From: a virus
Taxonomy: Duplodnaviria > Caudoviricetes
Virus record (IMG/VR): IMGVR_UViG_3300021475_000019
Location: 1-52,042 of that record
Length of the DNA: 52,042 nt
Reading direction: 5' to 3' (one strand)
Positions 1 through 52,042 of this stretch are shown piece by piece. The position numbers were made by a program, and so were the translations under genes. Numbering within the stretch: the stretch's first letter is position 1; every line of letters starts with the position of its first letter. Below the pieces are notes generated by a model. That model did not search any database and was not told the DNA's origin. It saw nothing but the letters and a program-made list of their open reading frames with translations.

Positions 1-70
1 CGCGCAGTTCATCAAGGAACTCGACCAGAAGGTCGAAAGGCTCTCGCGCCGCTACGCGGTGGCGGCGTGA
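1..70 (+). CDS. 3' end of YqaJ/lambda-exonuclease family gene (partial)
   Basis: Identical to the 3' end of 42663-43304 (...KVERLSRRYAVAA*). Confidence 0.85.
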   Translation, partial: AQFIKELDQKVERLSRRYAVAA

Positions 71-74
71 GGAC

Positions 75-400
75 GGCGGGCCAAGGCTCTGCGGGGTTTG
101 GCAATGCCTGGAACGGCTATGCTCGGCCATCCCCGGCGTGGCGCGGCATAGCAAGGCAAGGCTGGGCTGGGCGAGGCAGGGCGTGGAGCGGCACGGCGCG
201 GCTACGCAGCGCATGGCGGGGCCGGGCACGGCAAAGCGCGGCTACGCGCGGCGAGGCATCGCCATGCGCGGCATGGCTAGGCGCGGCGGGGCAGGGTCTG
301 GATCGGCAGCGCCATGCGCGGCTGGGCAGGGCTCAAGCTCGGCTAGGCAAGGCGGGGCATGGCTCGGCTCGGCTCGGTGGGGCCGTGCGCGGCGAGGCTT
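75..400 (+). repeat. GGC-NN pentamer array A1 (~65 units), putative guide RNA upstream of RAMP gene
   Basis: Parses as ggcgg gccaa ggctc tgcgg ggttt ggcaa ... ggcga ggctt in 5-nt phase, with one +1 slip near 335. Confidence 0.9.
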
Positions 401-428: not shown

Positions 429-1025
429 ATGTTCATCACGATTGAAATTCAGGGCATCACACCGCTGATCTGCAACAGGTTCACCGACGAGGCGGCGATG
501 GCCTCGACCAACGGCGACCGGGGCTCGTCGGCTGGGATGGATCGTGGCACGCCGCTGGAGATCGCGGCGTCGAAGCTCTACGTCGGCGTCGGCGGCAAGC
601 CGATGATCCCCTCGCCCAACTTGCTGCGGTCCATCGTCGACGGCGGCGCGCACACCAAACTTGGAAAAAAACAAGTTACGACGGCGCGTTCGTCGCTGCT
701 GTACGCCTGCCTGTCGATTGACGCGGCCGAGGTCGAGATTGTCAGCGAGCAATCGTGGAAGGTCGACACGCGCCCGGTTCGCATTCCCTCGACCGGCGGT
801 CGCATCCTTTGCCACCGGCCGATGTTCGATGATTGGAAGCTCGCGTTCGAGGTTGAACTCGACACGACAATTTTGAACGCGAAGCTCCTGCGGCAGATCG
901 TCGACGACGCGGGCAAGCGCGTCGGGTTGGGCGATTTCCGGCCGGTCTGCAAAGGGCCGTTCGGCAAGTACGTCGTCACGCGGTGGGCCGAGCAGCAGGC
1001 TCTGGCTCCGCGACTGGCGGCGTAA
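429..1025 (+). CDS. Cas7-like / RAMP-fold RNA-binding protein (Vipr-like), allele A, 198 aa
   Basis: N-terminal IEIQGITPLI strand, GKPMIPSPNLLRSI (RAMP P.IP.ss.lkg.l motif), RPMFDDWKLAFEVELD, and C-terminal G-rich loop GKRVGLGDFRP..KGPFGKY. RBS GAAAGGAA upstream. No other cas genes. Confidence 0.8.
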   Translation: MFITIEIQGITPLICNRFTDEAAMASTNGDRGSSAGMDRGTPLEIAASKLYVGVGGKPMIPSPNLLRSIVDGGAHTKLGKKQVTTARSSLLYACLSIDAAEVEIVSEQSWKVDTRPVRIPSTGGRILCHRPMFDDWKLAFEVELDTTILNAKLLRQIVDDAGKRVGLGDFRPVCKGPFGKYVVTRWAEQQALAPRLAA

Positions 1026-1032: not shown

Positions 1033-1183
1033 GGCGTGGCGCGGCGCGGCGTGGTCTGGCTTGGCGAGGCGAGGCCGCGTTCGGCAGGGCGTGGCCGGGC
1101 CGGGCGCGGCATTCCCCGGCGTGGCATGGCGAGGCATGGCGTGGGGCGCGGCTCATGGGGTTCTCCCCCTCATGAGCCGCGCC
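1033..1183 (+). ncRNA. GGC-NN array A2 (22 units) with 3' hairpin, putative guide RNA
   Basis: 22 in-phase pentamers at 1033-1142, then stem ggcgcggctcatg/catgagccgcgcc (1145-1183). TAAAGT at 1023-1028 could be a -10 element. Confidence 0.75.
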
Positions 1184-5692: not shown

Positions 5693-5722
5693 AAAAGGGG
5701 CCCCGCAGGGCCCCTTTTTTTT
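5693..5722. terminator. Bidirectional intrinsic terminator
   Basis: aaaaggggccc-cgca-gggccccttttttttt between convergent genes. Confidence 0.85.
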
Positions 5723-6285: not shown

Positions 6286-6349
6286 TATGGATGATCCCCG
6301 GTTCTAAACGATAGCCAGGATTTACCATGTTCGTGCGACAAATGCGCGA

Positions 6350-6550
6350 ATTTTATTCCCGCACCGGATTTGGGTGCGGGATTTTATCCTCGGAAAGCCG
6401 CAGATTTGCTGGGGTCAGGCCCCCACATCGCATTCCGACGCGAAACTCTGGACTGTAGGAAAACCGGGCGTCTCCGAGGAAGTGCGGGATTTTAGGTCCC
6501 GTTGAACCCCTTTAGGTAATTTTCTGCCAGTCCCGCACCTTTTGGCCCAG
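6350..6550. other. Putative attP region with repeated TCCCGCAC/GTGCGGGA sites
   Basis: Motif at 6357, 6374, 6482 and 6531 in alternating orientation. Non-coding, near int, conserved in copy B (48450-48650). Confidence 0.5.
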
Positions 6551-6647
6551 AGGGGCAGATCTTTGGCCCACACTGACAATGGCGCTACGGGCGCGGCGCG
6601 TTATATGATGGCCCAGAGACATCATGTCCGCTGGTAGGGAAACTGCA

Positions 6648-7284: not shown

Positions 7285-7288
7285 ACCG

Positions 7289-8128: not shown

Positions 8129-8131
8129 CGG

Positions 8132-9589
8132 TCACTCCAAGGCGGAAGTGTCGTAGCCCTTATCCTTCAGATGCTTGAGCGCGGAGCGCGGCCCGTAGTG
8201 TTCCACGGCGTTCTGGAAATCGAGCTTGTCTTGCTCCGTCAGTTGCTTGAGGTCCTTGTTCGGCTGGACCGACTTCCCAATGGGGCCGCCAGGATCAAGG
8301 TCGCCGCCCGACTGATACATCGGATCAAGGTAGGGCTTGAGATAGCCGGGTATGTCGGAGAGCCTGCCAGCCGCGCCATAGGCGTTGGCTTGGGCGGTGA
8401 GCGCGAGCTTGATCTTCGGCGCGATGACCTCCTCGCGATAATTGCCGATGCCAAAGTTGGTATAGTCCTCAGGGTTCGCACCCAAAGTTGCGAGGTTCTG
8501 GCCAACGCCCTTGGGGCCGCCGCGCGCCGACAAGACCTTCGCCGTGCCAGCCAGCCCCTCCATCTTGCTGTGCAGATTGTAGGCCTCCGTTCCAGGGGCC
8601 AATCCTTCGAGCCAGCCCTTGCCAACGGCCTTCGCTGACCCGGTGATCTCGTCGAGTTTGGGCGAGTTCGAGACGTCGGCGAGATCGTCGACGAACTTGC
8701 CCAGGCCTTGGTTCATGCCGTTGAACTGACCTTTCGCGTCGGTCAGGTCCTTGTTGTACAGGCTCCACTTCGTCGGGTCGGTCAGATAGCCGGGCATTGG
8801 CCTGCCCTTGTTGGCCGGATCGTTCTGCCATTGCGTTCGGGCGAACGCCATTGACTTCATGTCGCCGGTCATCCCCGGCAGGCCGCCCGTAATTATCATC
8901 GGCAAATAGTTGTTTTTCCAGTCCTCCTCCGAGCCGCCGCCCTTGATGAACTGGTCATGCTCGAACTGGATGTTCCGCTGCGTGTCGGTCGGCTCCATCT
9001 TTGAGATGAGGTCGGGGCCTTTACCGGCGAGGATCATGTCGCGCGAGGTGCCCGGCGGCAGGCCGAGCTTCGTGTCGTAGTCGGAGGCGTGGGCAAGCAT
9101 ATCCTGCGTCGCGCCCTGCTGCTGCATCGCGGTGTGCAGGCTCATCAGGTTGCCGACCGTCTGGCCCGCATCTTCGCCGCCGCCGGTCAGGCTCTGCATG
9201 ATCGACTGGCGCATCGAGGGCGGGCTGTGGTTGGCGGCGATCAGCGCAAGCCCGCTATTGATCCCCTGCATCGCCCGGTCGCGCTGCTGCATCTGCATGT
9301 ACAGCGACATGATGTTCGGCGGGTTGGCGAGCGTCTGGTAGCTCGCCGACATGTCGGGCGTCGACTGGAGCGCCTGCGGCTGCGGCGGCGAGTTGGGCGG
9401 CGGTGGAGCGCCTGGCGCTGGGTTGGGCGGGGGCGCGTTGGGATCGGCGCTCACCGGCTGCGCGTTCGGTGCTGGCGCGTTCGGGTTCTGCGGCGGCGCT
9501 CCTGGCGGCTGCTGCCCAGAGAGCATCGCCGCGAGCTGCCGCGCCGGGTCGGGGGCGCCCAGGTACAACAAATCGGCTAGACCGGCCAT
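8132..9589 (-). CDS. Putative DNA ejection (internal virion) protein
   Basis: 485-aa Q/G/P-rich helical protein in the ejection-gene position. Conserved in copy B. Confidence 0.6.
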   Translation of the reverse strand: MAGLADLLYLGAPDPARQLAAMLSGQQPPGAPPQNPNAPAPNAQPVSADPNAPPPNPAPGAPPPPNSPPQPQALQSTPDMSASYQTLANPPNIMSLYMQMQQRDRAMQGINSGLALIAANHSPPSMRQSIMQSLTGGGEDAGQTVGNLMSLHTAMQQQGATQDMLAHASDYDTKLGLPPGTSRDMILAGKGPDLISKMEPTDTQRNIQFEHDQFIKGGGSEEDWKNNYLPMIITGGLPGMTGDMKSMAFARTQWQNDPANKGRPMPGYLTDPTKWSLYNKDLTDAKGQFNGMNQGLGKFVDDLADVSNSPKLDEITGSAKAVGKGWLEGLAPGTEAYNLHSKMEGLAGTAKVLSARGGPKGVGQNLATLGANPEDYTNFGIGNYREEVIAPKIKLALTAQANAYGAAGRLSDIPGYLKPYLDPMYQSGGDLDPGGPIGKSVQPNKDLKQLTEQDKLDFQNAVEHYGPRSALKHLKDKGYDTSALE

Positions 9590-9744
9590 TTCCGTTCTCT
9601 TAAGTTAGCCCTGCGCTCCGCAAGGCGGTGCTCGGCGGTGCTGGGTCCGGCAAAGCTAGGCAGCGCAGGGCTCGGCGCGGCATTGCCCGGCGGCGCATCG
9701 CCCGGCAAGGCAAGGGGGGGCCGAGCCCACAAGGTTCGGCCCTC
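9578..9744 (+). ncRNA. Stand-alone GGC-NN cassette 1 (promoter, 19 units, hairpin)
   Basis: TAGACC-17-TAAGTT (9578-9606), units 9619-9713, hairpin gggccgagcc-cacaa-ggttcggccc (9718-9742). Confidence 0.75.
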
Positions 9745-13518: not shown

Positions 13519-14007
13519 TTAGAGTTCCTTCACGTAGAGTTGGTTCCTCGACCTCAGTCGCCAGCCGAGGCGGCGGTAGCTGCCCTCGCGCAGCCAACCG
13601 AGCCGCCCATAAGTCGAGAGCAACCCGGCGTTGACCTCGTCGGCGTAGGCCAAGATTTTGGCGTGCAGCGCATCGACATCGGTGAGGTCGCCGACGTAGG
13701 CGATAAGCTCCAATTGCCGCGCGCGTGGAAAGTCCGCAATCTTCGTGATCGCCCAACTGTTGCCCTCGACGAACGACTGCATCCGCCCTTCAGCGATGGC
13801 GGTGAGGATGTCCGACAAGATGTACGTTCCGCCCATTCTATCGAGTAGACGGCTCAATTTTCGGTGGTAGGATGCCGTGTCGCTGCATTGCGGCGGCGAG
13901 GCATGGCTCGGCCTGCCTGGGCTACGCAGGGCTGGGCCTTGCTTGGCGCGGCTTGGCATAGCGAGGGAGGCGGCTTCGGCCGCCTCTATCTTTTCGGGGC
14001 GGTTCAT
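13519..14007 (-). CDS. Phage virion-module protein (GNAT-like fold possible); N-terminal part overlaps an antisense array
   Basis: ATGA coupling with the upstream gene at 14004-14007. Conserved-looking core WAITKIADFPR...GRLGW. Alternative start at 13836. Confidence 0.6.
   Translation of the reverse strand: MNRPEKIEAAEAASLAMPSRAKQGPALRSPGRPSHASPPQCSDTASYHRKLSRLLDRMGGTYILSDILTAIAEGRMQSFVEGNSWAITKIADFPRARQLELIAYVGDLTDVDALHAKILAYADEVNAGLLSTYGRLGWLREGSYRRLGWRLRSRNQLYVKEL
13846..13986 (+). ncRNA. Stand-alone GGC-NN cassette 2 (promoter, 14 units, UUCG hairpin)
   Basis: TAGACG-16-TAGGAT (13846-13873), units 13895-13964, gaggcggc-ttcg-gccgcctc (13967-13986). Confidence 0.75.
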
Positions 14008-19986: not shown

Positions 19987-20106
19987 TAAGCTGCCCTCCT
20001 CCGCAAGGCACGGCTGAGCATTGCTAGGCTAGGCACTCCCTGGCGTGGCGGCGCACGGCGAGGCGGGGCAACGGGGGCGGCTCTGCATTTGCACGCAGAG
20101 CCGCCC
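19964..20106 (+). ncRNA. Stand-alone GGC-NN cassette 3 (promoter, 14 units, hairpin)
   Basis: TTGAGG-17-TAAGCT (19964-19992), units 20002-20071, 12-bp stem gggcggctctgc/gcagagccgccc (20075-20106). Confidence 0.75.
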
Positions 20107-21601: not shown

Positions 21602-21723
21602 TAGGTTGGCCTCGCGCAACGCGAGCCATGGCATGGCAGGGCAGGGCTGGGCCGAGCAAAGCGCGGCCTGGCAATGCAAGGCGAGGCTGGCAAGGCGTGG
21701 GGCGGCGGCCAGTAGGCCGCCGC
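21579..21723 (+). ncRNA. Stand-alone GGC-NN cassette 4 (promoter, 17 units, hairpin)
   Basis: TAGACG-17-TAGGTT (21579-21607), units 21615-21698 (one 4-nt unit), gcggcggcc-agta-ggccgccgc (21702-21723). Confidence 0.75.
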
Positions 21724-40818: not shown

Positions 40819-41270
40819 GCGGCGATATCCTTGCCTTGCTTTGCCGCGCCATGCCGGGCATGGCCTCGCCCGGCGCCGCCTAGCCGTGCAACGCCGCTCG
40901 TAGCCGGGCAATGCACCGCCTGGACCTGCCTCCTCACAACATTCCAGTCCTCAAGCACGCGGATTGGTTCGTCGCGGCCCCGGCACACCGCGTAAGTGAC
41001 GCCTGCGCGGATCAGCGCGAGCTTGAACGCCTTCTGGTTGGGGGAGAGCCTGCCGCTTTCCGTCTTCAGCTCGATAAAGGCGGCGCCGAGTTTGGGGGCG
41101 ATGACGAGGAGGTCGAAGAGGCCCCTGGTGAGCCCTGCTTGCCCTGCCGCCCGTGCATTTGGGATGGCGGCGACCAGGGTGTCGGGGAGGCCAAATGTGC
41201 GCCAATGCGTCACCACAGCCTGCTGGATCAGGCTTTCGCGCGGCGCAAATATCTTTCGTTTCCGCGCCAT
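40815..41270 (-). CDS. VRR-NUC domain nuclease
   Basis: ESLIQ...IPN...G...G.FDL....FIELKT..GRLS..Q. The C-terminal extension is encoded by the pentamer array. Confidence 0.85.
   Translation of the reverse strand: MARKRKIFAPRESLIQQAVVTHWRTFGLPDTLVAAIPNARAAGQAGLTRGLFDLLVIAPKLGAAFIELKTESGRLSPNQKAFKLALIRAGVTYAVCRGRDEPIRVLEDWNVVRRQVQAVHCPATSGVARLGGAGRGHARHGAAKQGKDIAA
40831..40930 (-). repeat. GGC-NN array (20 units) on the minus strand
   Basis: Reverse complement reads ggcag gtcca ggcgg tgcat tgccc ggcta ... ggcaa agcaa ggcaa. Confidence 0.8.
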
Positions 41271-41745: not shown

Positions 41746-41833
41746 CGTACCTTCATCCACAAGTATTCGCACGGCTGATGATTGACATGGCGATGGCGCG
41801 GGGCCAACCTTTACCCTTTCCAGGAGCCTCGAC

Positions 41834-42682
41834 ATGAGCGATACTCAATCAGCGGCCGGGGTCCCTTACCAGTCGGTCGCTGCGCCGCCCTCGGAAACAG
41901 TGCCCCCTACTGCCGCGTCCGAGGGCGGCGGCCTGCTCGCCATGATCGAGCGGCTCGCCACCAATCCCGCTCTCAACGTCGAAGTGTTCGACCGGCTCCT
42001 GGCCGCCCGGCGATCCGAGGAGGACCGCGCGGCCGAGCGCGCCTTCAACGCCGCGATGAGCCAAGCGAAGGGGCAGCTCGCGCCGGTCCTCAAGACGCGC
42101 GACGTGGACTTCCAGAGCAACAAGCCGGGCGCGGCGCGCACCAAGTACAAGTACGAGAGCTTTGCCGATGTCGCGCGCGTCGTGGACCCAGTGTTCGCGG
42201 CGCATGGGCTCGCCTACCGCTTCGCCGTCGCGCAGGGCGGTGATCTGGTGAAGGTCACCTGCATCGTCAGCCACGCCGACGGCTACAGCGAGCGCGTCAC
42301 GCTGGAGAGCAAGGCGGACCCAGGCTCGACCGGCATGAGCTGGGTGCAGGCGCTGGGAAGCGCGTTGAGCTACTTGCAGAGATACAGTTTGCGCGCGGCG
42401 ATTGGCCTCGCCGCTGGCATCGACGATGACGGACGCGCTGCAGGCGGCTCGTCGCCCAGGATCACCGTCGATCAGGCGAACGACATGCAGCGCCTCATCG
42501 ACGAGAGCGGTCGCAGTCAGGCGACGCTGCTCAAGCTCATCGGCGTCGAGAACGTCGCCGAGATGAACCTCGACCAGTTCACGCGGGCGGCGCAGGTCCT
42601 CGATCTCGCCAGGGCAGAGCAGAAGCAGAAGCGCAAAGCCAACCCACCACCGGGGAACGACAATGCTCCAACAGGGAAGTGA
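41834..42682 (+). CDS. erf: ERF-family single-strand annealing protein
   Basis: YKYESFADV...P....HGL...H.DG...QALGSALSYLQRYSL.AAIGLAAG.DDDG. Confidence 0.88.
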   Translation: MSDTQSAAGVPYQSVAAPPSETVPPTAASEGGGLLAMIERLATNPALNVEVFDRLLAARRSEEDRAAERAFNAAMSQAKGQLAPVLKTRDVDFQSNKPGAARTKYKYESFADVARVVDPVFAAHGLAYRFAVAQGGDLVKVTCIVSHADGYSERVTLESKADPGSTGMSWVQALGSALSYLQRYSLRAAIGLAAGIDDDGRAAGGSSPRITVDQANDMQRLIDESGRSQATLLKLIGVENVAEMNLDQFTRAAQVLDLARAEQKQKRKANPPPGNDNAPTGK

Positions 42683-43304
42683 GGAGTGGCGCCAAGCGCG
42701 CTGCGGATCGATAGGCGCGTCCGACGCGCCGAGTGTCGTGCGCCGCACCAAGTCGGGCTACAGCGCGGATCGCGAGAGCCTGATGGCGAACAAGGTGCTG
42801 GAGCGCATCACCAACACGCCGGTCGAGATCTACAAGACCGCAGCCATGCAGCAGGGGACGGCGCGCGAGCCTGAAGCGCGCCTGCTCTACCAGATGGTGC
42901 GCGGCGTCGAGGTCGAAGAAGTCGGCCTCATCACCCACCCGCGCATCAACGGCACGCATGCGTCGCCTGACGGGTTCGTCCTGGCCCCCGGCGGCACCGC
43001 GATTGCGGGATTGGTCGAGCTTAAATGCCCGCTGCCCGCGAAGCATCTCGACACACTGCTCAACGAGACGATCAGCAACGATCATCTCACTCAGATGATG
43101 TGGCAACTGGCCTGCACCAGCCACTCCTGGTGCGACTACGTCAGCTACAGCAGCGACTTTCCGCCGCACATGCAGCTCTGGTGCAAGCGCGTCCATCGCG
43201 ACAACGCGCTCATCGCCGAGCTGGAGCGCGAGATCGCGCAGTTCATCAAGGAACTCGACCAGAAGGTCGAAAGGCTCTCGCGCCGCTACGCGGTGGCGGC
43301 GTGA
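42663..43304 (+). CDS. YqaJ / lambda-exonuclease family protein
   Basis: QGSEEWRQARCG.IGAS, AMQQGTAREPEAR, ASPDG, VELKCP, Q..WQL. Confidence 0.9.
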   Translation: MLQQGSEEWRQARCGSIGASDAPSVVRRTKSGYSADRESLMANKVLERITNTPVEIYKTAAMQQGTAREPEARLLYQMVRGVEVEEVGLITHPRINGTHASPDGFVLAPGGTAIAGLVELKCPLPAKHLDTLLNETISNDHLTQMMWQLACTSHSWCDYVSYSSDFPPHMQLWCKRVHRDNALIAELEREIAQFIKELDQKVERLSRRYAVAA

Positions 43305-43308
43305 GGAC

Positions 43309-43503
43309 GGCGGGCCAAGGCTCTGCGGGGTTTGGCAATGCCTGGAACGGCTATGCTCGGCGAGGCATCGCAAGGCGCGGCTTGGCGAGGCGGGTCGGGG
43401 CAGTCCCCGGCTCGGCAGCGCCATGCGCGGCCGGGCAGAGCGCGGCATGGCTAGGCGCGGCGTAGCAGGGACCGGCGCAGCATGGTGCTGCGAGGCGAGG
43501 TTT
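43309..43503 (+). repeat. GGC-NN pentamer array B1 (39 units)
   Basis: Perfect 5-nt phase. First 10 units equal A1; the rest differ. Confidence 0.9.
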
Positions 43504-43522
43504 AACAACGAAGGGAAAGCGA

Positions 43523-44119
43523 ATGTTTATCACCATCGAAATTCAAGGCATCACTCCTCTGATCTGCAACCGTTTTACCGACGAGGCGGCGATGGCCTCG
43601 ACCAATGGCGACCGGGGCTCGTCGGCTGGGATGGATCGCGGCACGCCGCTGGAGATCGCAGCGTCGAAGCTCTACGTCGGCGCCGACGGCAAGCCGATGA
43701 TCCCGTCGCCCAACCTGCTGCGCTCCATCGTCGACGGCGGCGCGCACACCAAACTTGGAAAAAAACAAGTCACGACGGCGCGTTCGTCGCTGCTGTACGC
43801 CTGCCTGTCGATTGAGGCGGCCGAGGTCGAGATCATCAACGAGCAACCGTGGAAGGTTGACACGCGCCCGGTGCGCATCCCCTCGACCGGCGGTCGCATC
43901 CTCTGCCATCGGCCCATGTTCGATGATTGGAAGCTCGCGTTCGAGGTCGAACTCGACACGACAATTTTGAACGCGAAGCTCCTGCGGCAGATCGTCGATG
44001 ACGCGGGCAAGCGCGTCGGGCTGGGCGACTTCCGGCCGGTCTGCAAGGGGCCGTTCGGCAAGTACAACGTCGTGCGATGGGCCGAGCAGCAGGCCCAGCC
44101 GACGCGACTGGCGGCGTGA
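43523..44119 (+). CDS. Cas7-like / RAMP-fold protein (Vipr-like), allele B
   Basis: Same motifs as 429-1025, with about 11 aa differences out of 198 by manual comparison. Confidence 0.8.
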   Translation: MFITIEIQGITPLICNRFTDEAAMASTNGDRGSSAGMDRGTPLEIAASKLYVGADGKPMIPSPNLLRSIVDGGAHTKLGKKQVTTARSSLLYACLSIEAAEVEIINEQPWKVDTRPVRIPSTGGRILCHRPMFDDWKLAFEVELDTTILNAKLLRQIVDDAGKRVGLGDFRPVCKGPFGKYNVVRWAEQQAQPTRLAA

Positions 44120-44120
44120 A

Positions 44121-44390
44121 GGCACGGCAAGGCTCTGCATGGCCCAGCGCGGAACGGCAGGGCAGGGCGAGGCCCGGCTCTGCGGGGCAAGGCAAGGCTA
44201 TGCGAGGCAGGGCAGGGCGGGGCCGGGCTAGGCGAGGCGTAGCGAGGCAGGGCACGGCGCGGACTGGCTAGGCGAGGCGAGGCAACGCGAGGCTAGGTTG
44301 GGCAACGCGGCGCGAGGCTAGGCTAGGCACGGCTGGGCAACGCGGCGCGAGGCGCGGCATGGCATGGCCCGGCGAGGCGGCGCAAGGCAA
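44121..44390 (+). repeat. GGC-NN pentamer array B2 (54 units)
   Basis: 270 nt in unbroken 5-nt phase starting 2 nt after the stop codon, ending cgcaa ggcaa gg. Confidence 0.92.
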
Positions 44391-44452
44391 GGAACTTTGA
44401 AATCCATGACCCCAAACATCCACCCAAAACCTATTAGCCCAGGCTGACGCCC

Positions 44453-44947
44453 ATGTTTTGTTTCACGTGGAATGGCTCGGCGATGGTCCCGATGAGGGCC
44501 CAGGCGGCGGCCAAGGCCTACGTCGAGGGCCGCCGGTACTGGCTGGAACAGGCGTCCGAGCGGAGCTGGATCTCCCACCAGCAGCAGTTCGCCTGGATCG
44601 GCGAGGCCTGGGCCAATCTGCCCGAAGGCCTCGCCGAGACATTCCCGTCGCCGGAGCATCTGCGCAAGGCGGCGCTGATCGCCACCGGCTGGCATCGCGA
44701 GACGATCATCGACTGCGGGAGCCGAACGGCGGCGGCGCGCGTTGCGGCCTTCGCGCGGAACGAGGATGAGTTCGCGCGGGTCATCGTGCGAGGCCCGACG
44801 GTGGTGGTGCAGAAGGCGCGCTCGCAGCGCATGCACGGCCTCGACCGCATGGACAAGGCCGAGTTCGAGCGGTCGAAGGCCGACATCCTGGGCTGGATCT
44901 CCGAATTGATCGGCGTCACGCCTGAGCGGCTCAGGGGGGCGGCGTGA
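44453..44947 (+). CDS. NinB/DUF1367-like phage protein, allele B
   Basis: Homologue of 1251-1745. Confidence 0.55.
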   Translation: MFCFTWNGSAMVPMRAQAAAKAYVEGRRYWLEQASERSWISHQQQFAWIGEAWANLPEGLAETFPSPEHLRKAALIATGWHRETIIDCGSRTAAARVAAFARNEDEFARVIVRGPTVVVQKARSQRMHGLDRMDKAEFERSKADILGWISELIGVTPERLRGAA

Positions 44948-45147
44948 ACCTTGATCAAGAGACGCTACGCCGACATTTCGTCAAGGGCTGTCTCGGAAAG
45001 CGGGGCTACAAGTCGGAAGGCGTGGCGCTCCGAGTGAAGGACCAAGCCCTGCAAAATAAGAGGGGGCTGTCGCGCAAGTACATGGCGGGAACGGAGCCTT
45101 ATCTCTGCAAATTCTGCGGCGAATGGCACCTGGGGCACCCATCATGA
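44944..45147 (+). CDS. Small Zn-binding hypothetical protein (strain B only)
   Basis: C..K..Y...PYLCKFCGEWHLGH. Replaces the MTase and alpha-CTD genes of strain A. Confidence 0.65.
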   Translation: MNLDQETLRRHFVKGCLGKRGYKSEGVALRVKDQALQNKRGLSRKYMAGTEPYLCKFCGEWHLGHPS

Positions 45148-45878
45148 TCCGCACGCTCGCTTGGTTCTCCTGTGGGGCGGCGTCAGCGGTCGCCACCAAA
45201 CTCACGGCCGAGGCCGAGCCGGTCTATTGCGAGACGGGGGCCGAGCATCCCGACAACGAGCGTTTTCTCGCTGATTGCGAGCAATGGTTCGGGCGCAAGG
45301 TGACGCGCCTCAAGTCCGACAGATACGCCGACACTTGGGACGTGTGGACAAAGCGCCGCTACCTCGCGGGCGTGCAGGGCGCGCTTTGCACCGTGGAGTT
45401 GAAGGCCGCGCCGCGCATTGCCTTCCAGAGGCCAGACGATATCCACATCCTGGGCTACACCGCCGACGCGGCCGACGTGACGAGGGCGAACCGGCTGCGC
45501 GAGACTTATCCAGAGCAGGTGTTCCTGACGCCGCTGATCGAGCGCGGCATCCTGAAGGAGCATTGCCTCGACATGGTTCGGCGGGCGGGCATCGCGCTGC
45601 CGCCGCTGTACGCGCTGGGCTTCCGCAACAACAATTGCATCCCCTGCGTCAAGGCGCAGAGCGCCGCCTATTGGGCGCTGGTGCGCCGCGAGTTCCCGTC
45701 TGAGTTCGACCGCATGGCGCGACTGTCGCGGGACCTTGGGGTCAGGCTCTGCAAGACGGCCAGCGGCGAGCGCGAACGCATATTCATCGATGAGGTCCCG
45801 CTCGACCAGCCGGTCACAGATCCCATTCAGCCGTCGTGCGACTTTCTCTGCCACCTCGCCGAGCAGGATTTGACATGA
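45144..45878 (+). CDS. PAPS-reductase-like PP-loop protein, allele B
   Basis: Homologue of 2709-3446. Confidence 0.7.
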   Translation: MIRTLAWFSCGAASAVATKLTAEAEPVYCETGAEHPDNERFLADCEQWFGRKVTRLKSDRYADTWDVWTKRRYLAGVQGALCTVELKAAPRIAFQRPDDIHILGYTADAADVTRANRLRETYPEQVFLTPLIERGILKEHCLDMVRRAGIALPPLYALGFRNNNCIPCVKAQSAAYWALVRREFPSEFDRMARLSRDLGVRLCKTASGERERIFIDEVPLDQPVTDPIQPSCDFLCHLAEQDLT

Positions 45879-46228
45879 TCCGCATCTCGTTCTCGGCCGC
45901 CAGCAAGCGCGCCATCGAGCGCCGCGCGACCAGCGCGATGAACGGCAAGACGTACTGCGAGCAGTGCGTCGCCGAGTGCCCGACGCGGGCCGACTACGAG
46001 ATCGACCATTGCGTGGCCGAGGGCGCGCTGGCGGCCAACGACAACAGGCCGCCGCTCACCGCCGAGGATGGCAAGCTTCTCTGCCTCAAGTGCCACGACA
46101 AGAAGACCCGGCGCGACGTGCGCGAGATCGCCAAGTCGAAACGCCTGGAGGGCAAGCATCGGCCCATCGACGGCGGGCCGTCGGAGATCGCCCGGCGCTA
46201 CCGCATCCCCCAGGAGCCCCACAGATGA
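45875..46228 (+). CDS. HNH endonuclease, allele B
   Basis: Homologue of 3443-3793. Confidence 0.8.
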   Translation: MIRISFSAASKRAIERRATSAMNGKTYCEQCVAECPTRADYEIDHCVAEGALAANDNRPPLTAEDGKLLCLKCHDKKTRRDVREIAKSKRLEGKHRPIDGGPSEIARRYRIPQEPHR

Positions 46229-46524
46229 TCGTACGCGCCCTTCTGCTCGCCCTGGTCCTTCTGGCCCCAGCGTCGGTCCCGGCGGCTGCTGCGTGCCACC
46301 ACTACTCGATCTGGAAGAACCCGTGGCCCCAGCGGTGCGGCGTGGCGCGTCAAGGACAAATTCGGACAATTTCGGACAAACTCGGTCAAGCGCAAGTTCG
46401 CGCAAATTCGCGCAAGCCCGACATCGCCTTGCCTCATCTCACAAGGAACGACTGCGTCGGCGGCGAAGCAGATGAATTGACGCGCGCCCGGCTGGAGCTG
46501 CTTGGATACGCCTATGCCCACTAA
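46225..46524 (+). CDS. Small secreted hypothetical protein, allele B
   Basis: Signal peptide + CHHYSIWKNPWPQRC. Confidence 0.6.
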   Translation: MIVRALLLALVLLAPASVPAAAACHHYSIWKNPWPQRCGVARQGQIRTISDKLGQAQVRANSRKPDIALPHLTRNDCVGGEADELTRARLELLGYAYAH

Positions 46525-46723
46525 GCACAACGGCCCCCTGATGGAGGACTACAAGCGGGCGCTGAAGGCCGCGAAATGGGCGGGCGTCAAGGCCGTGCGG
46601 GTCGAAATTGGCCAAGGCGCTATTGTAATGATTATGGACGACACTTATCTGGAGAAGTTGGCACTGGGCCAACCTCCCGCACCGGATAACGAGGTGAGGG
46701 AAAAACCAAAAGCACGCTGGTAA
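46514..46723 (+). CDS. Small protein upstream of integrase, allele B
   Basis: Homologue of 4191-4400. Confidence 0.5.
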   Translation: MPTKHNGPLMEDYKRALKAAKWAGVKAVRVEIGQGAIVMIMDDTYLEKLALGQPPAPDNEVREKPKARW

Positions 46724-46735
46724 GGGAAATTTATT

Positions 46736-47779
46736 ATGCCGAAACGTAGAGTAAGGGGCCTCTGCTCCGAGTTGAACCGACACGGCACCCGTGTCTGGTA
46801 CTACCGCGACGGCCATGGGCCGCGCAGCCGCATTCCCGGCCTCTACGGCTCGCCCGCCTTCAACGCCGCGCTGAACGCCGCCATGGGCCGCGCTACAACC
46901 CCCGCCGTGACGAGCGGCCTGACGCACACCGACAGCGGCTCGCTCGCTTGGCTCGTCGATCAGTTCCAGTCCTCGTCGGCCTGGAGCGCGACGAAGCCCG
47001 CGACGCAGAAGCAGCGCCGCAACATCCTCGCCCGCGTCGTCAAGGAGAACGGCTCCTACGCCGTCCGCGATCTCGACCACGCCTGGGTGGAGGACCTGCG
47101 CGACCTCGTCGCCGACGACGGCCGGGCGACCGCGATGGCCAACGCCGTCGTCAAGGTCCTGCGCGCGTTCTTTGAGTGGGCGACGCCGAAGCACATGCCG
47201 GTCAACATCGCGCAGAGCGTCAAGCTCATCGCGCGCGACGACCGCGTTGGCTTCCATTCGTGGACCGAGGTGGAGCTGGAGCGGTTCGAGGCCTACTACC
47301 CGCTCGGCACGCGCGAGCGGCTCGCCTATTCGGTCCTGCTCTGGACCGGCCAGCGGCGCAGCGACTGCGTCAAGTTCGGCAAGCAGCATGTCCTCCGCAA
47401 CGGACGACTGTTCCTGCGGCAGGGCAAGACCAACAATCCGGTGACGATCCCGATCATGCCGGAGCTGGCCGAGGCGCTCGCCGCCGGTCCCGTGGGCGAC
47501 CTCTGCTGGATCGTCGGCGACAAGGGCAACCCGCTCACCGCCGACACGTTCACGGGCTGGTTCCGCCAAGTCTGCGACAAGGCTGGCCTGCCGGAGTGCA
47601 GCGCGCACGGCCTGCGCAAGGCGGCGGCCCGACGGTTCGCCCTGGCTGGCGCGACCTTGGACGAGCTGAAGGCTTGGTTTGGCTGGACCGAGAACCGGAC
47701 GCCCGGCATCTACACTCGCGACGCCGACAACTCGCAGCTCGCCGACAACGCGGCGCGCAGGTTGACCAAGGCGGCGTGA
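46736..47779 (+). CDS. int: Tyrosine integrase, allele B
   Basis: TGQRRSD, HGLRK, GIYTR. Confidence 0.93.
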   Translation: MPKRRVRGLCSELNRHGTRVWYYRDGHGPRSRIPGLYGSPAFNAALNAAMGRATTPAVTSGLTHTDSGSLAWLVDQFQSSSAWSATKPATQKQRRNILARVVKENGSYAVRDLDHAWVEDLRDLVADDGRATAMANAVVKVLRAFFEWATPKHMPVNIAQSVKLIARDDRVGFHSWTEVELERFEAYYPLGTRERLAYSVLLWTGQRRSDCVKFGKQHVLRNGRLFLRQGKTNNPVTIPIMPELAEALAAGPVGDLCWIVGDKGNPLTADTFTGWFRQVCDKAGLPECSAHGLRKAAARRFALAGATLDELKAWFGWTENRTPGIYTRDADNSQLADNAARRLTKAA

Positions 47780-47784
47780 CGAAG

Positions 47785-47813
47785 AAGGGGGCCCCTGAGG
47801 CCCCCTTTTTTTT
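47785..47813. terminator. Intrinsic terminator
   Basis: aagggggcc-cctga-ggccccctttttttt. Confidence 0.85.
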
Positions 47814-47817
47814 ACCC

Positions 47818-48387
47818 TCAGACCTCCGCGAACCGCGAGGTCTTGCCGCGCCTGAGGCCCGCCCAGGCCAGACCGGCGAAGCCGATCAGCAGCATTGCCC
47901 AGGTCGATGGCTCCGGCGTCGTCACCGCCGTGATCGTGCCGTCAATCGCGATGTGGATAGGCGAGCCGCCGCTGATCCCCGACACTTCCGCAAAGTAGCT
48001 CCCGGCGCCAAGCACGTCAGGCGTCACGGTCGCGGCTTGCCCGCCGAGGAAGTTGATGAGCGCCGAACTCTCGATCAGCGAGCCCAGGGGTTCGAACGGA
48101 GACACGGACGCGGTCCCGGTCTGTGTGTTGAGCGACAGCACGCCGCCGACGATGCGCTGGGCGCCGATGGCGCTGTCGCTCACCGACACGGTGACCGTCT
48201 CGGTAGTCGGGAGCGTGAACTCGAAAAACTCCGAGAACCCGATGCCGCTGCCGGGCGTGTCCTGCGCGGGGAGCGCGAGGCTCTCGTTGAGGACCGCGCC
48301 GATGTTCTCGACGGTGATCTCGGCGGCGTGGGCAGGCGTGGAGCCGACAGCGAGCGCGAGCGCCCCGGCGAGAAGGATGGCTTTCAT
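47818..48387 (-). CDS. PEP-CTERM (PEPxxWA) protein, allele B
   Basis: Signal peptide and TPEPSTWAMLLIGFAGL...RRGK. Confidence 0.9.
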   Translation of the reverse strand: MKAILLAGALALAVGSTPAHAAEITVENIGAVLNESLALPAQDTPGSGIGFSEFFEFTLPTTETVTVSVSDSAIGAQRIVGGVLSLNTQTGTASVSPFEPLGSLIESSALINFLGGQAATVTPDVLGAGSYFAEVSGISGGSPIHIAIDGTITAVTTPEPSTWAMLLIGFAGLAWAGLRRGKTSRFAEV

Positions 48388-48449
48388 GGATGTTGCCCCT
48401 GGTTTGAAGGAGGCAGTTTTCTACCTGCTCATCATGACGATGGCGAGAA

Positions 48450-48660
48450 ATTTTATTCCCGCACCGATTTCTGGTGCGGGATTTTCTCCTCGGAAAGCCG
48501 CAGATTTGCTGGGGTCGGGGCCCCACATCGCATTCCGACGCGAAATTCGAGATTGTAGGAAAACCGGGCGTTTCCGAGGAAGTGCGGGATTTTTCGCCCT
48601 CCTGAAATCATTAACCCTTTTCTGCGCCCATCCCGCACCTTTTGGCCCGTAGGTGCAGAT
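48450..48660. other. Putative attP region, copy B
   Basis: Same four TCCCGCAC/GTGCGGGA sites and conserved centre as 6350-6550. Confidence 0.5.
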
Positions 48661-48739
48661 CTTTGGCCCGCACTGACATGGCGCTACGCGGGCGAAGTGT
48701 TATATGTTGGCCCAGAGACAACACGAAGTGAGACGAATT

Positions 48740-49532
48740 ATGGAAAGCCCTTTTGAAACTCGCCTGTACCGCGTCACCACCGGGACGACGTATGACCCGC
48801 CCAAGCGGGTCCGCGCTGAGACGCGCAAGGAGGCCGCAGAGATCGTTGCCAACCGCATCGCCAAACGATGGTACGGGCGCGCAGGCTACTGCCATCATGT
48901 GCGCTACGACTGCCGCACCATGGACCGCAAGACTGAGCATTACGAGGCGTTCGTCGGTCACACCGTGGGCAACGGCTGCGATGGTCGCCACATCTGGGTT
49001 TACGTGTCGTAATGGCACTGCAATTAGGCGCGCTGCGCGAGGCGCTGATCGAGGCGGGCGCGAGCCCTGACAAGGCCGGTAAGGCCTCCGAGGAGGTCGC
49101 GGGCTACGACAGCGACCTCAAGCTCCTGAAGTGGATGGTCGGCGGCGTCTACGCCGTCCTGGTCATCCTGGGAGCCCCGGCGCTGTGGCTCTTGCTGCGC
49201 GTCGCGGCGAAGGTGGGGGCGCTCGGATGACCGCGTACTACGTGGCGGCGAGCAACCGCTACTTTTGGCAAACCCTCGGCGTTCAGGCGACGAGCGCCGA
49301 GGCCGCAGCCGAGGCGTTCCGCGCCTACCTCGCCGCGCCCGCACAGCAGACGGCCCAGGCCTACGAGCTGGAGCAGGCCGAGCAATTCGGGTCCGACGGC
49401 TCCGAGGGCGAACTCGACCGCGCGAGCTACGTCTACGACTTCGACGACGGCATCATCGAGGAGTGCGACGAGCCCGACGCGCCCAAGGTCGGCGAGGCTG
49501 TGCGCATGCTCGACAGCGGGGGGAAGGGCTGA
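48740..49532 (+). CDS. Three strain-B-specific small ORFs (48740-49012, 49012-49230 membrane, 49227-49532)
   Basis: Coupled ORFs replacing 6648-6866 of strain A. Confidence 0.55.
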
Positions 49533-49688
49533 TGAACGCGCACTGGCCCACCGATAAAGTCCCCGGCGCGAGCCGGGCTCTGACCGAAAGCCGAGGCGGC
49601 CCTGCTGGCCCAGCTCCAGAGCCGCCCCCACGCCCTCAACAGACGCGAGCGCGATCTCCTGATCAAGCTCCAACGAAAGGTTAAGTGA
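49532..49688 (+). pseudogene. Frameshifted homologue of 6863-7021
   Basis: accgaaagccg versus accgaagccg in copy A: an extra A near 49588 (real or sequencing error). Confidence 0.5.
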
Positions 49689-49910
49689 ATGCACAGCGTT
49701 CTTGGAATTGCCCTCGCCGTTGTTGTTGCGGGATGGGCTTTCGACAGGCTGGTCGACGGGCGGATCGCCAAGCGCATGCGCCCGGCCGCCGCGCCCGCGC
49801 CCCCGAAGCCGCAGGCGGGCTTGTCTCTGCGGGAGGGCCTCACGCTGGTGGGCGCCGTCGTTTTCCTGATCGCCCTTATGGCCGTGGCCGGTCATTTCAA
49901 CCTGGGCTGA
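49689..49910 (+). CDS. Small membrane protein
   Basis: Two hydrophobic segments. Same slot as 7018-7284. Confidence 0.55.
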   Translation: MHSVLGIALAVVVAGWAFDRLVDGRIAKRMRPAAAPAPPKPQAGLSLREGLTLVGAVVFLIALMAVAGHFNLG

Positions 49911-49911
49911 A

Positions 49912-50778
49912 CTACTGCCCAGGTATCCACTGGTCCCAGGGCCCGGCCCCCTGCCGGAACGCCGACGAGCCGCCCAAAATACCGCTCTTGATCGCCTGCT
50001 GCGTCGCGGGGTTCTCCGCGAGTTTTTTCACGACCTCGCCACTCCCCTCGGTCAGGTTGTGCATGAGCGTGTAGCCGCCAAGCGCGGTCAGGATTTCATG
50101 GTAGCCCTCGCCGAACGCCTTGCGAGCGGCCATCGTCACGGCGGCGGCCGGGCCCAGGTCCATCACCCCCCTGGTGAGCTGCGGCAGGACAGCGGGGGCG
50201 GCCTTCGCGGCCACCCCACCGACGCCGCCCGCAATGCTGCCCATCGCCGCGTCGTCGGCCGCCGTCGTCCAGTCGTTGCCCTGGGCTTTGCTCTTGATCC
50301 CCTCATGCGCCGACCCGGCGAGAATGGACCCGCCGGGGAGCGCGTTGAGCAGCGTCGTCGGGCTCAGGACGTTGCCCGCCATATCCGCGCCCGCCGCCGC
50401 CACCGGGCCGAGCCTCTCCCTCGCCTTCTGGGCCTCGGTCCTGAGGCCCGGCAGCAGGTACATCGAGGCCTCATTTCCAGCAACATTCCCAAAGTCCTGC
50501 ACCGACTGCGGCATGATCACGTCGCCGAACCCAGGCTGCGGGAGCAGGCCCGGTCCCCACCCCTTGACGCCCCAGCCGCTGGGCGAGGCGGCAGCGGCGT
50601 TGGGAGTGGCGGGTGCGGGTGTGGGTGCTGCTGCAACGGGCTTCGCGCCCGTGGGATTGAAGTTGCTGAATGCGCCGCCGCTGGAGCTGGCTGCGGGAGC
50701 CTCAGCCTGCGGCGCTGCAACGGCTTGGCCTTTCTGCTTCGCGCCCGTGGGGTCGAAGTTGTCGAATGCGCCCGCCAT
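49912..50778 (-). CDS. Putative virion/ejection protein, allele B
   Basis: Homologue of 7289-8128. Confidence 0.6.
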   Translation of the reverse strand: MAGAFDNFDPTGAKQKGQAVAAPQAEAPAASSSGGAFSNFNPTGAKPVAAAPTPAPATPNAAAASPSGWGVKGWGPGLLPQPGFGDVIMPQSVQDFGNVAGNEASMYLLPGLRTEAQKARERLGPVAAAGADMAGNVLSPTTLLNALPGGSILAGSAHEGIKSKAQGNDWTTAADDAAMGSIAGGVGGVAAKAAPAVLPQLTRGVMDLGPAAAVTMAARKAFGEGYHEILTALGGYTLMHNLTEGSGEVVKKLAENPATQQAIKSGILGGSSAFRQGAGPWDQWIPGQ

Positions 50779-50781
50779 CGA

Positions 50782-52042
50782 TCACTCCAGCCCAGAGGTA
50801 TCGTAGCCGTTGTCTTTAAGGTGCTTGAGCGCGGAGCGCGGCCCGTAATGTTCCACGGCGTTCTGGAAATCGAGCTTGTCTTGCTCCGTCAGTTGCTTGA
50901 GGTTCTTGTTCGGCTGGACCGACTTCCCAATGGGGCCGCCAGGATCAAGGTCGCCGCCCGACTGATACATCGGATCAAGGTAGGGCTTGAGATAGCCGGG
51001 TATGTCGGAGAGCCTGCCCGCCGCGCCGTAGGCGTTAGCTTGCGCGGTGAGCGCGAGCTTGATTTTCGGCGCGATGACCTCGTCGCGATAATTGCCGATG
51101 CCAAAATTGGTATAGTCGTCAGGGTTCGCGCCCAAAGTTGCGAGGTTCTGGCCAACGCCCTTGGGACCGCCGCGCGCCGACAAGACCTTCGCCGTGCCAG
51201 CCAGCCCCTCCATCTTGCTGTGCAGATTGTAGGCCTCCGATCCTGGCGCCAAGCCCTCAAACCAACCTTTGCCGACGGCCTTCGCTGACCCGGTGATCTC
51301 GTCGAGTTTGGGCGAGTTCGAGACATCGGCAAGATCGTCGACGAACTTGCTCAGGCCTTGGTTCATGCCGTTGAACTGACCTTTCGCGTCGGTCAGGTCC
51401 TTTGTGTAGAGCGACCACTTCGTGGGGTCGGTCAGGTAGCTGGGCATCGGCCTGCCCTGGTTGGCCGGGTCGTTGCTCCATTGCGTGCGGGCGAAGGCCA
51501 TCGACTTCATGTCGCCGGTCATCCCCGGCAGGCCTCCGGTGATGATCATCGGCAGGTAGTTCTTCTGCCAATCCTCCTCCGCTGCGGCGGCGTCCTGCCC
51601 TTTGGCAGTTGCGCCCTTGATGAACTGATCATGCTCGAACTGGATGTTTCGCTGCGTGTCGGTCGGCTCCATCTTGGTGATGAGGTCCTTGCCGTTCCCG
51701 GCGAGAATTTGCGACTGCACGACGGCCAGCGGCAGGTTGAGCTTTGCGGCGATGTCGGGAGCCTGCGCCAGGAGCTGCTGGTTCGCCGTTTGCTGCTGCA
51801 TCGCGGTGTGCAGGCTCATCAGGTTGCCGACCGTCTGGCCCGCATCTTCGCCGCCGCCGGTCAGGCTCTGCATGATGGATTGGCGCATCGAAGGCGGGCT
51901 GTGGTTGGCGGCGATTAGCGCGAGGCCGCTATTGATCCCCTGCATCGCCCGGTCGCGCTGCTGCATCTGCATGTACAGCGACATGATGTTCGGCGGGTTG
52001 GCGAGCGTCTGGTAGCTCGCCGACATGTCGGGCGTCGACTGG
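50782..52042 (-). CDS. Putative ejection protein, allele B (5' truncated by window end)
   Basis: Homologue of 8132-9589. Confidence 0.65.
   Translation of the reverse strand, partial: QSTPDMSASYQTLANPPNIMSLYMQMQQRDRAMQGINSGLALIAANHSPPSMRQSIMQSLTGGGEDAGQTVGNLMSLHTAMQQQTANQQLLAQAPDIAAKLNLPLAVVQSQILAGNGKDLITKMEPTDTQRNIQFEHDQFIKGATAKGQDAAAAEEDWQKNYLPMIITGGLPGMTGDMKSMAFARTQWSNDPANQGRPMPSYLTDPTKWSLYTKDLTDAKGQFNGMNQGLSKFVDDLADVSNSPKLDEITGSAKAVGKGWFEGLAPGSEAYNLHSKMEGLAGTAKVLSARGGPKGVGQNLATLGANPDDYTNFGIGNYRDEVIAPKIKLALTAQANAYGAAGRLSDIPGYLKPYLDPMYQSGGDLDPGGPIGKSVQPNKNLKQLTEQDKLDFQNAVEHYGPRSALKHLKDNGYDTSGLE

What the first reader, a model, noticed from the sequence alone, without database searches (positions are those of the whole stretch)
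43309..44390. Natural A/B experiment: protein conserved, arrays rewritten
Seen: the two RAMP alleles differ at about 11 of 198 aa. The upstream arrays have 65 vs 39 units and the downstream arrays 22 (+hairpin) vs 54 units, with different NN strings but a preserved 5-nt phase. Blocks such as ggcagcgccatgcgcggc and gcggcatggctaggcgcggcg are shared but reordered, and B2 has an internal duplication (ggcaacgcggcgcgaggc at 44301 and 44336). Inference: the scaffold is under purifying selection while the NN content diversifies, probably by slippage or recombination. The adjacent ERF/YqaJ recombination genes are candidate drivers.
Basis: partly seen in the sequence, partly recalled or inferred. Interest (0 to 1): 0.85.

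Follow-up and report, generated by a model that had tools for sequence, protein, structure and literature searches.

The report
Two VIPR guide-array variants in phage
The two gene copies and their five-base repeat arrays are two variants of a VIPR system, a CRISPR-like phage RNA-guided DNA-silencing system first described in 2026 preprints, and they differ mainly by whole blocks of guide units.

Summary
The two 198-aa proteins are 187/198 identical. The arrays have 65 vs 39 units upstream and 22 plus a hairpin vs 54-55 units downstream, in strict 5-nt phase.

This is a known system, VIPR. A family profile matches the solved SUSP1 Vipr protein over its full length (E 1.9e-19), and the fold is Cas7/Csm3-like. 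The arrays are the GGY/NN guide (vrRNA) repeats of bioRxiv 10.64898/2026.04.26.720920. This scan has filed VIPR loci on other DNA before.

- The protein is under purifying selection (dN/dS 0.14), and NN entropy is high.
- In guide blocks shared with four related loci, however, NN is conserved and position 1 of GGC changes most (differences by position 46, 0, 14, 9, 5).
- The arrays differ by replacement, insertion, deletion and duplication of whole units.
- ERF/YqaJ adjoin vipr in only 5 and 6 of 138 loci with a Vipr match.

The two "alleles" probably come from co-occurring phage variants joined in one assembly walk. No targets were found.

The parts
75..400 (+). Array A1: 65 GGCNN units (52 units, then AGCTC with one extra base at about 335, then 12 units). 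Candidate vrRNA guide array upstream of vipr allele A.
   Evidence: Logan contig of run X1 covers 98-535 with 0 differences.
429..1025 (+). vipr allele A, a 198-aa Vipr (minimal RAMP/Cas7-like) protein.
1033..1142 (+). Array A2: 22 GGCNN units.
   Evidence: X1 contig covers 875-1260 with 0 differences.
1145..1183 (+). 16-bp GC-rich hairpin directly after A2. Candidate 3' tail or terminator of the last vrRNA.
   Evidence: -40.5 kcal/mol, z -4.0, 0 of 200 shuffles fold as well.
43309..43503 (+). Array B1: 39 GGCNN units. The first 10 units are identical to A1.
   Evidence: Essentially identical in L003/L166 (two mismatches over about 43000-45875).
43523..44119 (+). vipr allele B, 198 aa.
   Evidence: PDB 36pp_D SUSP1 Vipr, E 1.4e-5 for the single sequence and 1.9e-19 for the profile. 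AF2 pLDDT 93. Foldseek top hits are Csm3/Cas7. phrog_4652.
44121..44395 (+). Array B2: 54-55 GGCNN units with a 7-unit internal duplication (44301 and 44336). It ends in GCAAGGCAAGGAAC and no hairpin follows.
   Evidence: Essentially identical in L003/L166.
1..127 (.). Exact 127-nt copy of 43235-43361 at the start of the contig (end of yqaJ plus the first 10 array units). This is the fork where variants A and B diverge.
   Evidence: An X1 unitig covers 1-127 at depth 15.3, against 7.9 for the A-specific contig.
51926..52042 (.). Exact 117-nt copy of 9252-9368 at the end of the contig. This is the fork where the two variants rejoin.
42663..43304 (+). YqaJ-like exonuclease gene, upstream neighbour (ERF gene at 41834-42682). 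It is context, not a conserved part of the system.
   Evidence: Pfam PF09588 and PF04404. Near vipr in only 6 and 5 of the 138 loci with a Vipr match.

Best explanation
The region is a VIPR (Viral Interference Programmable Repeat) locus of a temperate phage of about 43 kb from soil, seen in two variants.

How it works, taken from the published work on SUSP1 and not tested here. The 198-aa protein is a Vipr, a minimal Cas7-like RAMP. The flanking (GGC-NN)n tracts are genes for vrRNA guides. One Vipr protomer binds each 5-nt unit, hides the GGY triplet and presents the NN pair. The string of NN pairs reads double-stranded DNA while skipping every third base, and binding silences transcription of competing mobile elements.

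What the A/B difference means, inferred here. The two variants carry different guide repertoires. The arrays evolve mainly by gain, loss, duplication and replacement of blocks of whole units, the way CRISPR arrays differ in spacers. Inside a retained block the NN code is kept, and the first G of the scaffold drifts.

A and B most likely belong to two co-occurring phage variants that the assembler strung into one contig. They are probably not two loci of one genome.
For: Protein family:
- A profile of 76 relatives matches SUSP1 Vipr (PDB 36pp_D) over 1-184 vs 1-188, E 1.9e-19.
- The AF2 model has pLDDT 93. The best solved folds are Csm3 and type VII Cas7 (E 1e-6 to 1e-4, TM about 0.5-0.57).
- Residues that hold GGY in SUSP1 (R138, D177, W178, R179; section 5 of 10.64898/2026.04.26.720927) align with R130, D169, F170 and R171. 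D169 and R171 are invariant and R130 and F170 are invariant or at least 90% conserved.

Arrays:
- They have strict 5-nt phase, with position 2 G in 175/181 units and position 3 C in 164/181. They are far beyond chance.
- In relatives, 82 of 115 loci with both flanks have such arrays next to the gene, and 38 have 30 or more units on one side. There are 4654 units on the gene's strand against 74 on the other.

Viral context:
- The record is a virus record with an integrase and ERF/YqaJ genes.

Block turnover:
- A1 shares a 10-unit block with identical NN with L002 and L168 (9 of its units with L001), and 18 aligned units (4 gap units) with L167.
- L001, L002 and L168 share blocks of 19-25 aligned units; A2 and L167 share 9 units.
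- A1 and B1 share only the first 10 units and two 4-unit runs. A2 and B2 share no run of 4 or more units.
- Synonymous divergence of the gene is only 0.23, so point change alone would have left the arrays largely alignable.

Population variants:
- Contigs of runs X1 and X2 skip 125 nt or repeat 64+1 nt within A1.

Two variants in one sample:
- X1 holds contigs with exactly the A sequence. It also holds contigs whose differences equal the B allele (7, 11 and 14 differences in three stretches, with the same letters) and a third allele.
Against: - No target was found for any guide.
- There is no direct evidence of transcription or processing. The only RNA evidence is contigs of a relative in one soil metatranscriptome, which may contain DNA.
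- Three of the four arrays (A1, B1, B2) have no structured 3' tail, and run 39-65 units against the 9-16 units per vrRNA described for SUSP1.
- No conserved accessory (vap) gene was found. The downstream 164-aa ORF recurs in only 3 of the 138 loci with a Vipr match.
- SUSP1 H17, which contacts G1, is N16 here.
- The per-position counts in shared blocks come from alignments scored on NN and from non-independent pairs.
- A-specific and B-specific contigs have nearly equal depth in X1 (7.9-11.6 vs 5.4-7.8). That would also fit physical linkage of A and B.
Confidence: 0.8

Rival explanations
1. A and B are truly linked on one DNA molecule, as tandem prophages or a concatemer of two related phages. 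In that case one cell carries both guide sets.
For: The assembler produced one path through A arm, backbone and B arm. A- and B-specific contigs have similar depth in run X1, and the shared 1-127 unitig has about their sum: 15.3 against 7.9 and 7.3.
Against: Both arms run from the integrase straight into phage late genes with no host DNA, and a simple tandem pair has only one such junction. The contig ends fall exactly on 127-nt and 117-nt exact repeats. Relatives' integrases sit on contigs of 44,472 and 43,266 nt, about one genome length. A third allele is also present in X1. In L003/L166 the B locus is joined to a different ERF allele.
Confidence: 0.3
2. One reading: the NN positions themselves are hypervariable through slippage or recombination driven by the neighbouring ERF/YqaJ genes, on a scaffold held constant by selection.
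For: NN entropy is high and GGC entropy low across units. Indels are in-phase. The A/B divergence starts inside the upstream array, after unit 10.
Against: Within shared blocks NN is nearly unchanged while scaffold position 1 changes in 46 of 162 aligned unit pairs. ERF and YqaJ are near vipr in 5 and 6 of the 138 loci with a Vipr match, yet 82 of 115 loci with both flanks have arrays.
Confidence: 0.12
3. The arrays do not encode guide RNAs. They would instead be DNA-level protein-binding tracts, G-rich structural DNA, or coding sequence with a 5-residue period.
For: In copy A one frame stays open from yqaJ through A1 into the gene (ORF 3-1025). No transcript has been shown for this locus.
Against: In copy B the gene's frame is closed upstream of its ATG, so the open frame is not conserved. 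The strand bias towards the vipr strand is about 63 to 1. The neighbouring protein is a homologue of an RNA-binding protein solved with exactly this repeat RNA.
Confidence: 0.03

Closest known systems
VIPR systems (Vipr protein + vrRNA). The type II examples are Escherichia phage SUSP1 and a Pseudomonas fulva prophage. Sources: bioRxiv 10.64898/2026.04.26.720920, 10.64898/2026.04.26.720927, 10.64898/2026.10.15.759431; PDB 36pp.
   Same: A Vipr protein of about 200 aa homologous over its full length, with conserved G-loop and thumb residues that hold GGY. GGY/NN pentamer arrays lie on both sides of the gene on its strand. The carrier is viral. There are no cas genes and no CRISPR array. Further stand-alone arrays with structured 3' ends lie elsewhere in the genome.
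   Different: Only the C-terminal 70 residues match by single-sequence search (E 1.4e-5). The arrays run 22-65 units without interspersed tails, against 9-16 units plus a pseudoknot tail. Tails, where present, are plain GC hairpins. No conserved vap gene was found. G1 of the scaffold is G in only 142/181 units and drifts between relatives, and SUSP1 H17 is N16 here. The host is probably a soil member of Hyphomicrobiales (named integrase relatives at 40-46% identity).
VIPR variants with staggered arrays or YNNNG-type repeats (named in sections 9 and 20 of 10.64898/2026.04.26.720920; figures S17-S18 not seen).
   Same: Long continuous arrays without tails, and a degenerate first G, are both mentioned there as existing variants.
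   Different: I could not compare directly. The figures and data files that define the seven types are supplements, which were closed, so I cannot assign a type to this locus.
Class 1 CRISPR-Cas backbone proteins (Cas7/Csm3).
   Same: RAMP fold. These are the best solved-structure matches in the Foldseek library.
   Different: 10-14% identity. No repeat-spacer array, no other cas genes, and a 5-nt rather than 6-nt RNA period.

Membership tests
VIPR system | Vipr protein: a minimal RAMP homologous to described Vipr proteins. | tested here: met
   Profile vs PDB 36pp_D 'SUSP1 Vipr protein' gives E 1.9e-19 over the full length. AF2 pLDDT is 93. Foldseek top hits are Csm3 and type VII Cas7.
VIPR system | Residues that clamp the GGY triplet (SUSP1 H17, R138, D177, W178, R179). 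| tested here: inconclusive
   R130, D169, F170 and R171 align with R138, D177, W178 and R179 and are invariant or at least 90% conserved. H17 aligns with N16, which is not conserved in kind.
VIPR system | Tandem GGY/NN (YNNGG) pentamer arrays beside the gene, on its strand. | tested here: met
   In relatives, 82 of 115 loci with both flanks have them, with 4654 vs 74 units by strand.
VIPR system | vrRNAs of about 100 nt are expressed, carry a conserved structured 3' tail and co-purify with Vipr. | not testable with these tools
   Only a hairpin after A2. A1, B1 and B2 lack a tail. RNA-library contigs of a relative cover vipr and part of an array, which is a weak hint.
VIPR system | Guides match natural targets by the 1-nt-skip rule (at least 80% NN match). 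| tested here: inconclusive
   None in the window (best 16/20, the same as with 0- or 2-nt skips). None above controls in 139 loci. IMG/VR seed scans gave only chance seeds. One guide matched 0 of 401 genomes. Most guides and most databases were not searched.
VIPR system | Accessory vap gene next to vipr. | tested here: inconclusive
   The downstream 164-aa ORF (phrog_15346, no Pfam or NCBIfam hit) recurs in 3 of the 138 loci with a Vipr match. The paper says 'typically' two genes, and I could not see whether some types lack a vap.
VIPR system | Carried by a virus or provirus, outside any CRISPR-Cas locus. | tested here: met
   Virus record. Neighbours are ERF, YqaJ, PAPS-reductase-like, HNH, methyltransferase and integrase genes. 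There are no Rfam hits, and Tandem Repeats Finder found no repeat-spacer array.
Class 1 CRISPR-Cas | Repeat-spacer array and a set of cas genes (cas5, cas6, large subunit, cas1/2). | tested here: not met
   Searches show none in the neighbourhood. I did not annotate the whole window gene by gene.

The most novel reading that the evidence does not exclude
VIPR arrays may themselves be the route by which these systems get new guides. The periodic GGC scaffold would give in-phase microhomology, so co-circulating phages could swap, duplicate and delete whole guide blocks by ordinary recombination. That would be a cassette-exchange substitute for the missing adaptation module. In this clade the first G of the scaffold would be nearly neutral, making the effective unit N-G-C-N-N.
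Probability: 0.35. Interest if true: 0.55.

Novelty: new member of a known kind. Interest (0 to 1): 0.33.

Why it matters
The system itself is already described, so its presence here is not news. The modest value lies in the comparison of six closely related loci: A, B (recovered again as L003/L166), L001, L002, L167 and L168.

The sections I read of the VIPR preprints do not say how guide arrays change. My word searches for acquisition, diversification, duplication and recombination found nothing on it.

This comparison shows three things:
- Guides turn over as blocks of whole units.
- The NN code is kept inside retained blocks.
- The first scaffold base is free to drift.

It also shows that several variants with different arrays coexist in one soil sample. 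If confirmed on long reads, this gives a testable picture of how a CRISPR-like system without an adaptation module renews its guides.

Tried and rejected
Target prediction by the published 1-nt-skip rule
- All ten arrays of the window were slid in 10-unit windows over the window itself. The best score was 16/20, no better than with 0- or 2-nt skips. The 3-nt skip only finds the arrays themselves.
- The same scan over 139 related loci (815,599 nt) gave four hits at 18/20, against two for the 2-nt-skip control.
- Exact seed scans of IMG/VR:
  - The conserved 10-unit block had 0 hits.
  - An 8-unit seed of the 13895 array had 26 hits, all in contigs of 28-59% G+C, extending by 1-6 of the 12 remaining bases.
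  - An 8-unit seed of the conserved block had 5 hits, with almost no extension (0-2 of 20 flanking units matched).
- One 13-unit guide with up to 3 mismatches matched 0 of 401 genomes of the order that holds L113.
- All this shows only that targets were not found where I looked.

NN composition against codon positions
- The codon position 1-2 model fits best among the frame models, but barely better than uniform. It scores -3.96 vs -4.00 bits per unit for 550 clade units, and -4.02 for the window's own 181 units.
- I did not use this as evidence.

Other attempts
- Coding of the arrays was rejected.
- Rfam found no family in the window.
- Promoter and terminator scans found nothing beyond the shuffles.
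- The single-sequence AF2 model was useless (pLDDT 34).
- The first genome-contig scan with one protein found nothing.
- No similar cultured phage exists at DNA level. The closest cultured-phage proteins are 26-31% identical.
- MAFFT alignments of the arrays are dominated by the period and were not used for homology.
- No tRNA was found to place the attachment site.
- I could not assign a VIPR type. The figures and data that define the types are supplements, which were closed.

Full report
What is there

The window holds two colinear copies of one locus. Copy A runs from 60 to about 1185 and copy B from 43304 to 44395.

Each copy has a 198-aa ORF (429-1025 and 43523-44119) flanked by tracts with a strict 5-nt period. 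The proteins are 187/198 identical.

Written in GGCNN register:
- The upstream tracts have 65 units (A1) and 39 units (B1).
- The downstream tracts have 22 units (A2) and 54-55 units (B2).
- A1 has a single 1-nt slip near 335. Otherwise each tract keeps one phase.
- A2 is followed by a perfect 16-bp hairpin. B2 is not.

My caller finds 11 arrays of 9 or more units in the window, against 0.04 per dinucleotide-preserving shuffle.

What it is

The ORF has no Pfam or NCBIfam family. It does hit phrog_4652, a family of unknown function, and the solved 'SUSP1 Vipr protein', PDB 36pp_D (E 1.4e-5).

The family is large. There are 1670 proteins at E <= 0.001 in the word-indexed search and 4093 50%-identity clusters in the exhaustive search.

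A profile of 76 members matches SUSP1 Vipr end to end at E 1.9e-19. With that alignment AlphaFold2 gives pLDDT 93. The nearest solved folds in the Foldseek library are Csm3 and type VII Cas7.

The literature search led to four 2026 preprints:
- 10.64898/2026.04.26.720920. I read the outline, sections 4, 10, 18, 20, 26 and 27, and passages.
- 10.64898/2026.04.26.720927. I read the outline and section 5.
- 10.64898/2026.10.15.759431. I read the outline, sections 8 and 17, and passages.
- 10.64898/2026.10.21.760802. I read passages only.

They describe VIPR as follows:
- A phage-borne minimal RAMP (Vipr) polymerises on vrRNAs made of alternating GGY and NN.
- One protomer binds each unit and hides GGY.
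- The NN pairs read double-stranded DNA while skipping every third base.
- Binding silences competing mobile elements.

The SUSP1 residues that hold GGY (R138, D177, W178, R179) align with R130, D169, F170 and R171. D169 and R171 are invariant and R130 and F170 are invariant or at least 90% conserved in this family. H17 aligns with N16.

In relatives, 82 of 115 loci with both flanks carry such arrays next to the gene, and 38 have 30 or more units on one side. There are 4654 units on the gene's strand against 74 on the other.

This is therefore a VIPR locus. The scan has filed VIPR loci on other DNA several times.

Are A and B two loci of one genome?

The 'genome' held for this window is this one 52,042-nt virus record. 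Window 1-9368 is colinear with 43235-52042 at 81-91% identity.

The first 127 nt of the contig repeat exactly at 43235-43361. The last 117 nt repeat exactly at 9252-9368. This is what a de Bruijn graph walk gives when it goes once round a genome of about 43.2 kb and then enters the arm of a second variant.

Several observations point the same way:
- Relatives' integrases sit on contigs of 44,472 and 43,266 nt.
- In run X1 (95% of the stretch's sampled words, possibly the source sample) a unitig covers exactly 1-127 at depth 15.3.
- A-specific contigs lie at depth 7.9-11.6.
- Contigs whose differences equal the B allele (7, 11 and 14 differences, same letters) lie at depth 5.4-7.8.
- A third allele lies at depth 4.7.

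The nearly equal depths would also fit physical linkage, so I put that at about 0.3. Either way the comparison of A and B stands, as two variants present in one soil sample.

The arrays themselves are not assembly artefacts. The B locus recurs with two mismatches over about 43000-45875 in contig L003 = L166, where it is joined to a different ERF allele. Logan contigs of X1 reproduce A1 and A2 without a difference.

How the arrays differ

Across the 181 units of the four arrays the entropy of positions 1-5 is 1.08, 0.23, 0.57, 1.90 and 1.97 bits.

The gene is under purifying selection: 44 of 594 nucleotide differences, dN/dS 0.14, dS 0.23. With that little neutral divergence the arrays should still align if only point changes had occurred. 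They do not:
- A1 and B1 share the first 10 units (inside the identical 127 nt) and two runs of 4 units.
- A2 and B2 share no run of 4 or more units.

Four related loci carry recognisable blocks. These are L001 and L002 and L167 and L168.
- A 10-unit block of A1 recurs with identical NN in L002 and L168. Nine of its units recur in L001.
- It recurs with 2 NN changes in L167.
- L001, L002 and L168 share blocks of 19-25 aligned units.
- A2 shares 9 units with L167's downstream array.
- Shuffled-order controls never exceeded a score of 10, while these alignments score 12-44.

In the 162 aligned unit pairs of these blocks, differences by position are 46, 0, 14, 9 and 5. Gaps are whole units (1 and 4 units).

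The alignment is scored on NN and the pairs are not independent, so the low NN counts are biased. The invariance of G2 and the strong excess at position 1 are not affected by that bias.

Contigs of X1 and X2 add variants of A1 that skip 125 nt or repeat 64+1 nt. An aligner will favour in-phase jumps in periodic sequence, so I read these only as 'phase kept'. B2 holds a 7-unit duplication.

The picture is block turnover with a conserved code inside blocks, not hypermutation of NN.

The proposed drivers

ERF and YqaJ lie near vipr in 5 and 6 of the 138 loci with a Vipr match. Those include only the three closest relatives. Arrays, by contrast, are found in 82 of 115 loci with both flanks.

The divergence of A from B does start inside the upstream array. 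That fits recombination within arrays, but it does not point to any particular recombinase.

What is not shown

I found no target for any guide. I have no evidence of processing, and no conserved vap gene.

Three of the four arrays lack a tail and are far longer than the 9-16 units of SUSP1 vrRNAs. The first preprint mentions 'staggered arrays with overlapping vrRNAs' and YNNNG-type repeats. Both may cover what is seen here, but the figures are supplements that I could not open.

One soil metatranscriptome (X8) holds contigs of a relative's vipr (466-956, 21 differences) and of an array. DNA carry-over cannot be excluded.

Verdict

The system is already known, and this is a new member.

The protein is constrained and the arrays change in 5-nt steps. 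But the NN code is conserved within blocks, G1 is the drifting position, ERF/YqaJ are not implicated, and A/B are probably two co-occurring variants.

Noticed in passing
window 3798-3862, 9624-9723, 13895-13959, 20007-20071, 21630-21689 (+ strand); 40831-40930 (- strand): Six further GGCNN arrays of about 12-20 units lie away from vipr. Four sit in gaps between minus-strand late genes, antisense to them. The five plus-strand arrays are each followed directly by a 9-14-bp GC hairpin. The 3798 array exists only in variant A. They look like solo vrRNA genes with simple hairpin tails.
   Followed up: partly
window 44382-44392, 9705-9715, 151-161, 44187-44197, 3858, 40831 region; L001, L002 and L168 downstream arrays: Many arrays end in (N)GCAA-GGCAA-GG, and the same string occurs inside long arrays. 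It may mark 3' ends of individual vrRNAs within tail-less arrays. I did not test this.
   Followed up: no
window 130, 1113, 43404: The off-pattern unit TCCCC followed by GGC recurs once in each of A1, A2 and B1. A related TCCCT occurs in the 20007 array and in L167. It could be a boundary or processing mark.
   Followed up: no
L003/L166 vs window 41792-45875: The B-type VIPR locus is near-identical to the window from about 43000 on. The ERF gene and the start of yqaJ are only 57-94% identical per 100-nt bin. This indicates mosaic recombination among these phages, with a breakpoint inside yqaJ.
   Followed up: partly
L017, L019, L020, L022, L046, L069, L089: Relatives at 51-64% protein identity carry more than 100 GGYNN units beside vipr, and up to 181 more elsewhere within the 6.5-kb locus. 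These are very large guide arrays.
   Followed up: no
L071-L080: Ten low-G+C loci (34-36% G+C, 48-54% protein identity) have no array by my GGY-based caller. They may use a non-canonical repeat unit.
   Followed up: no
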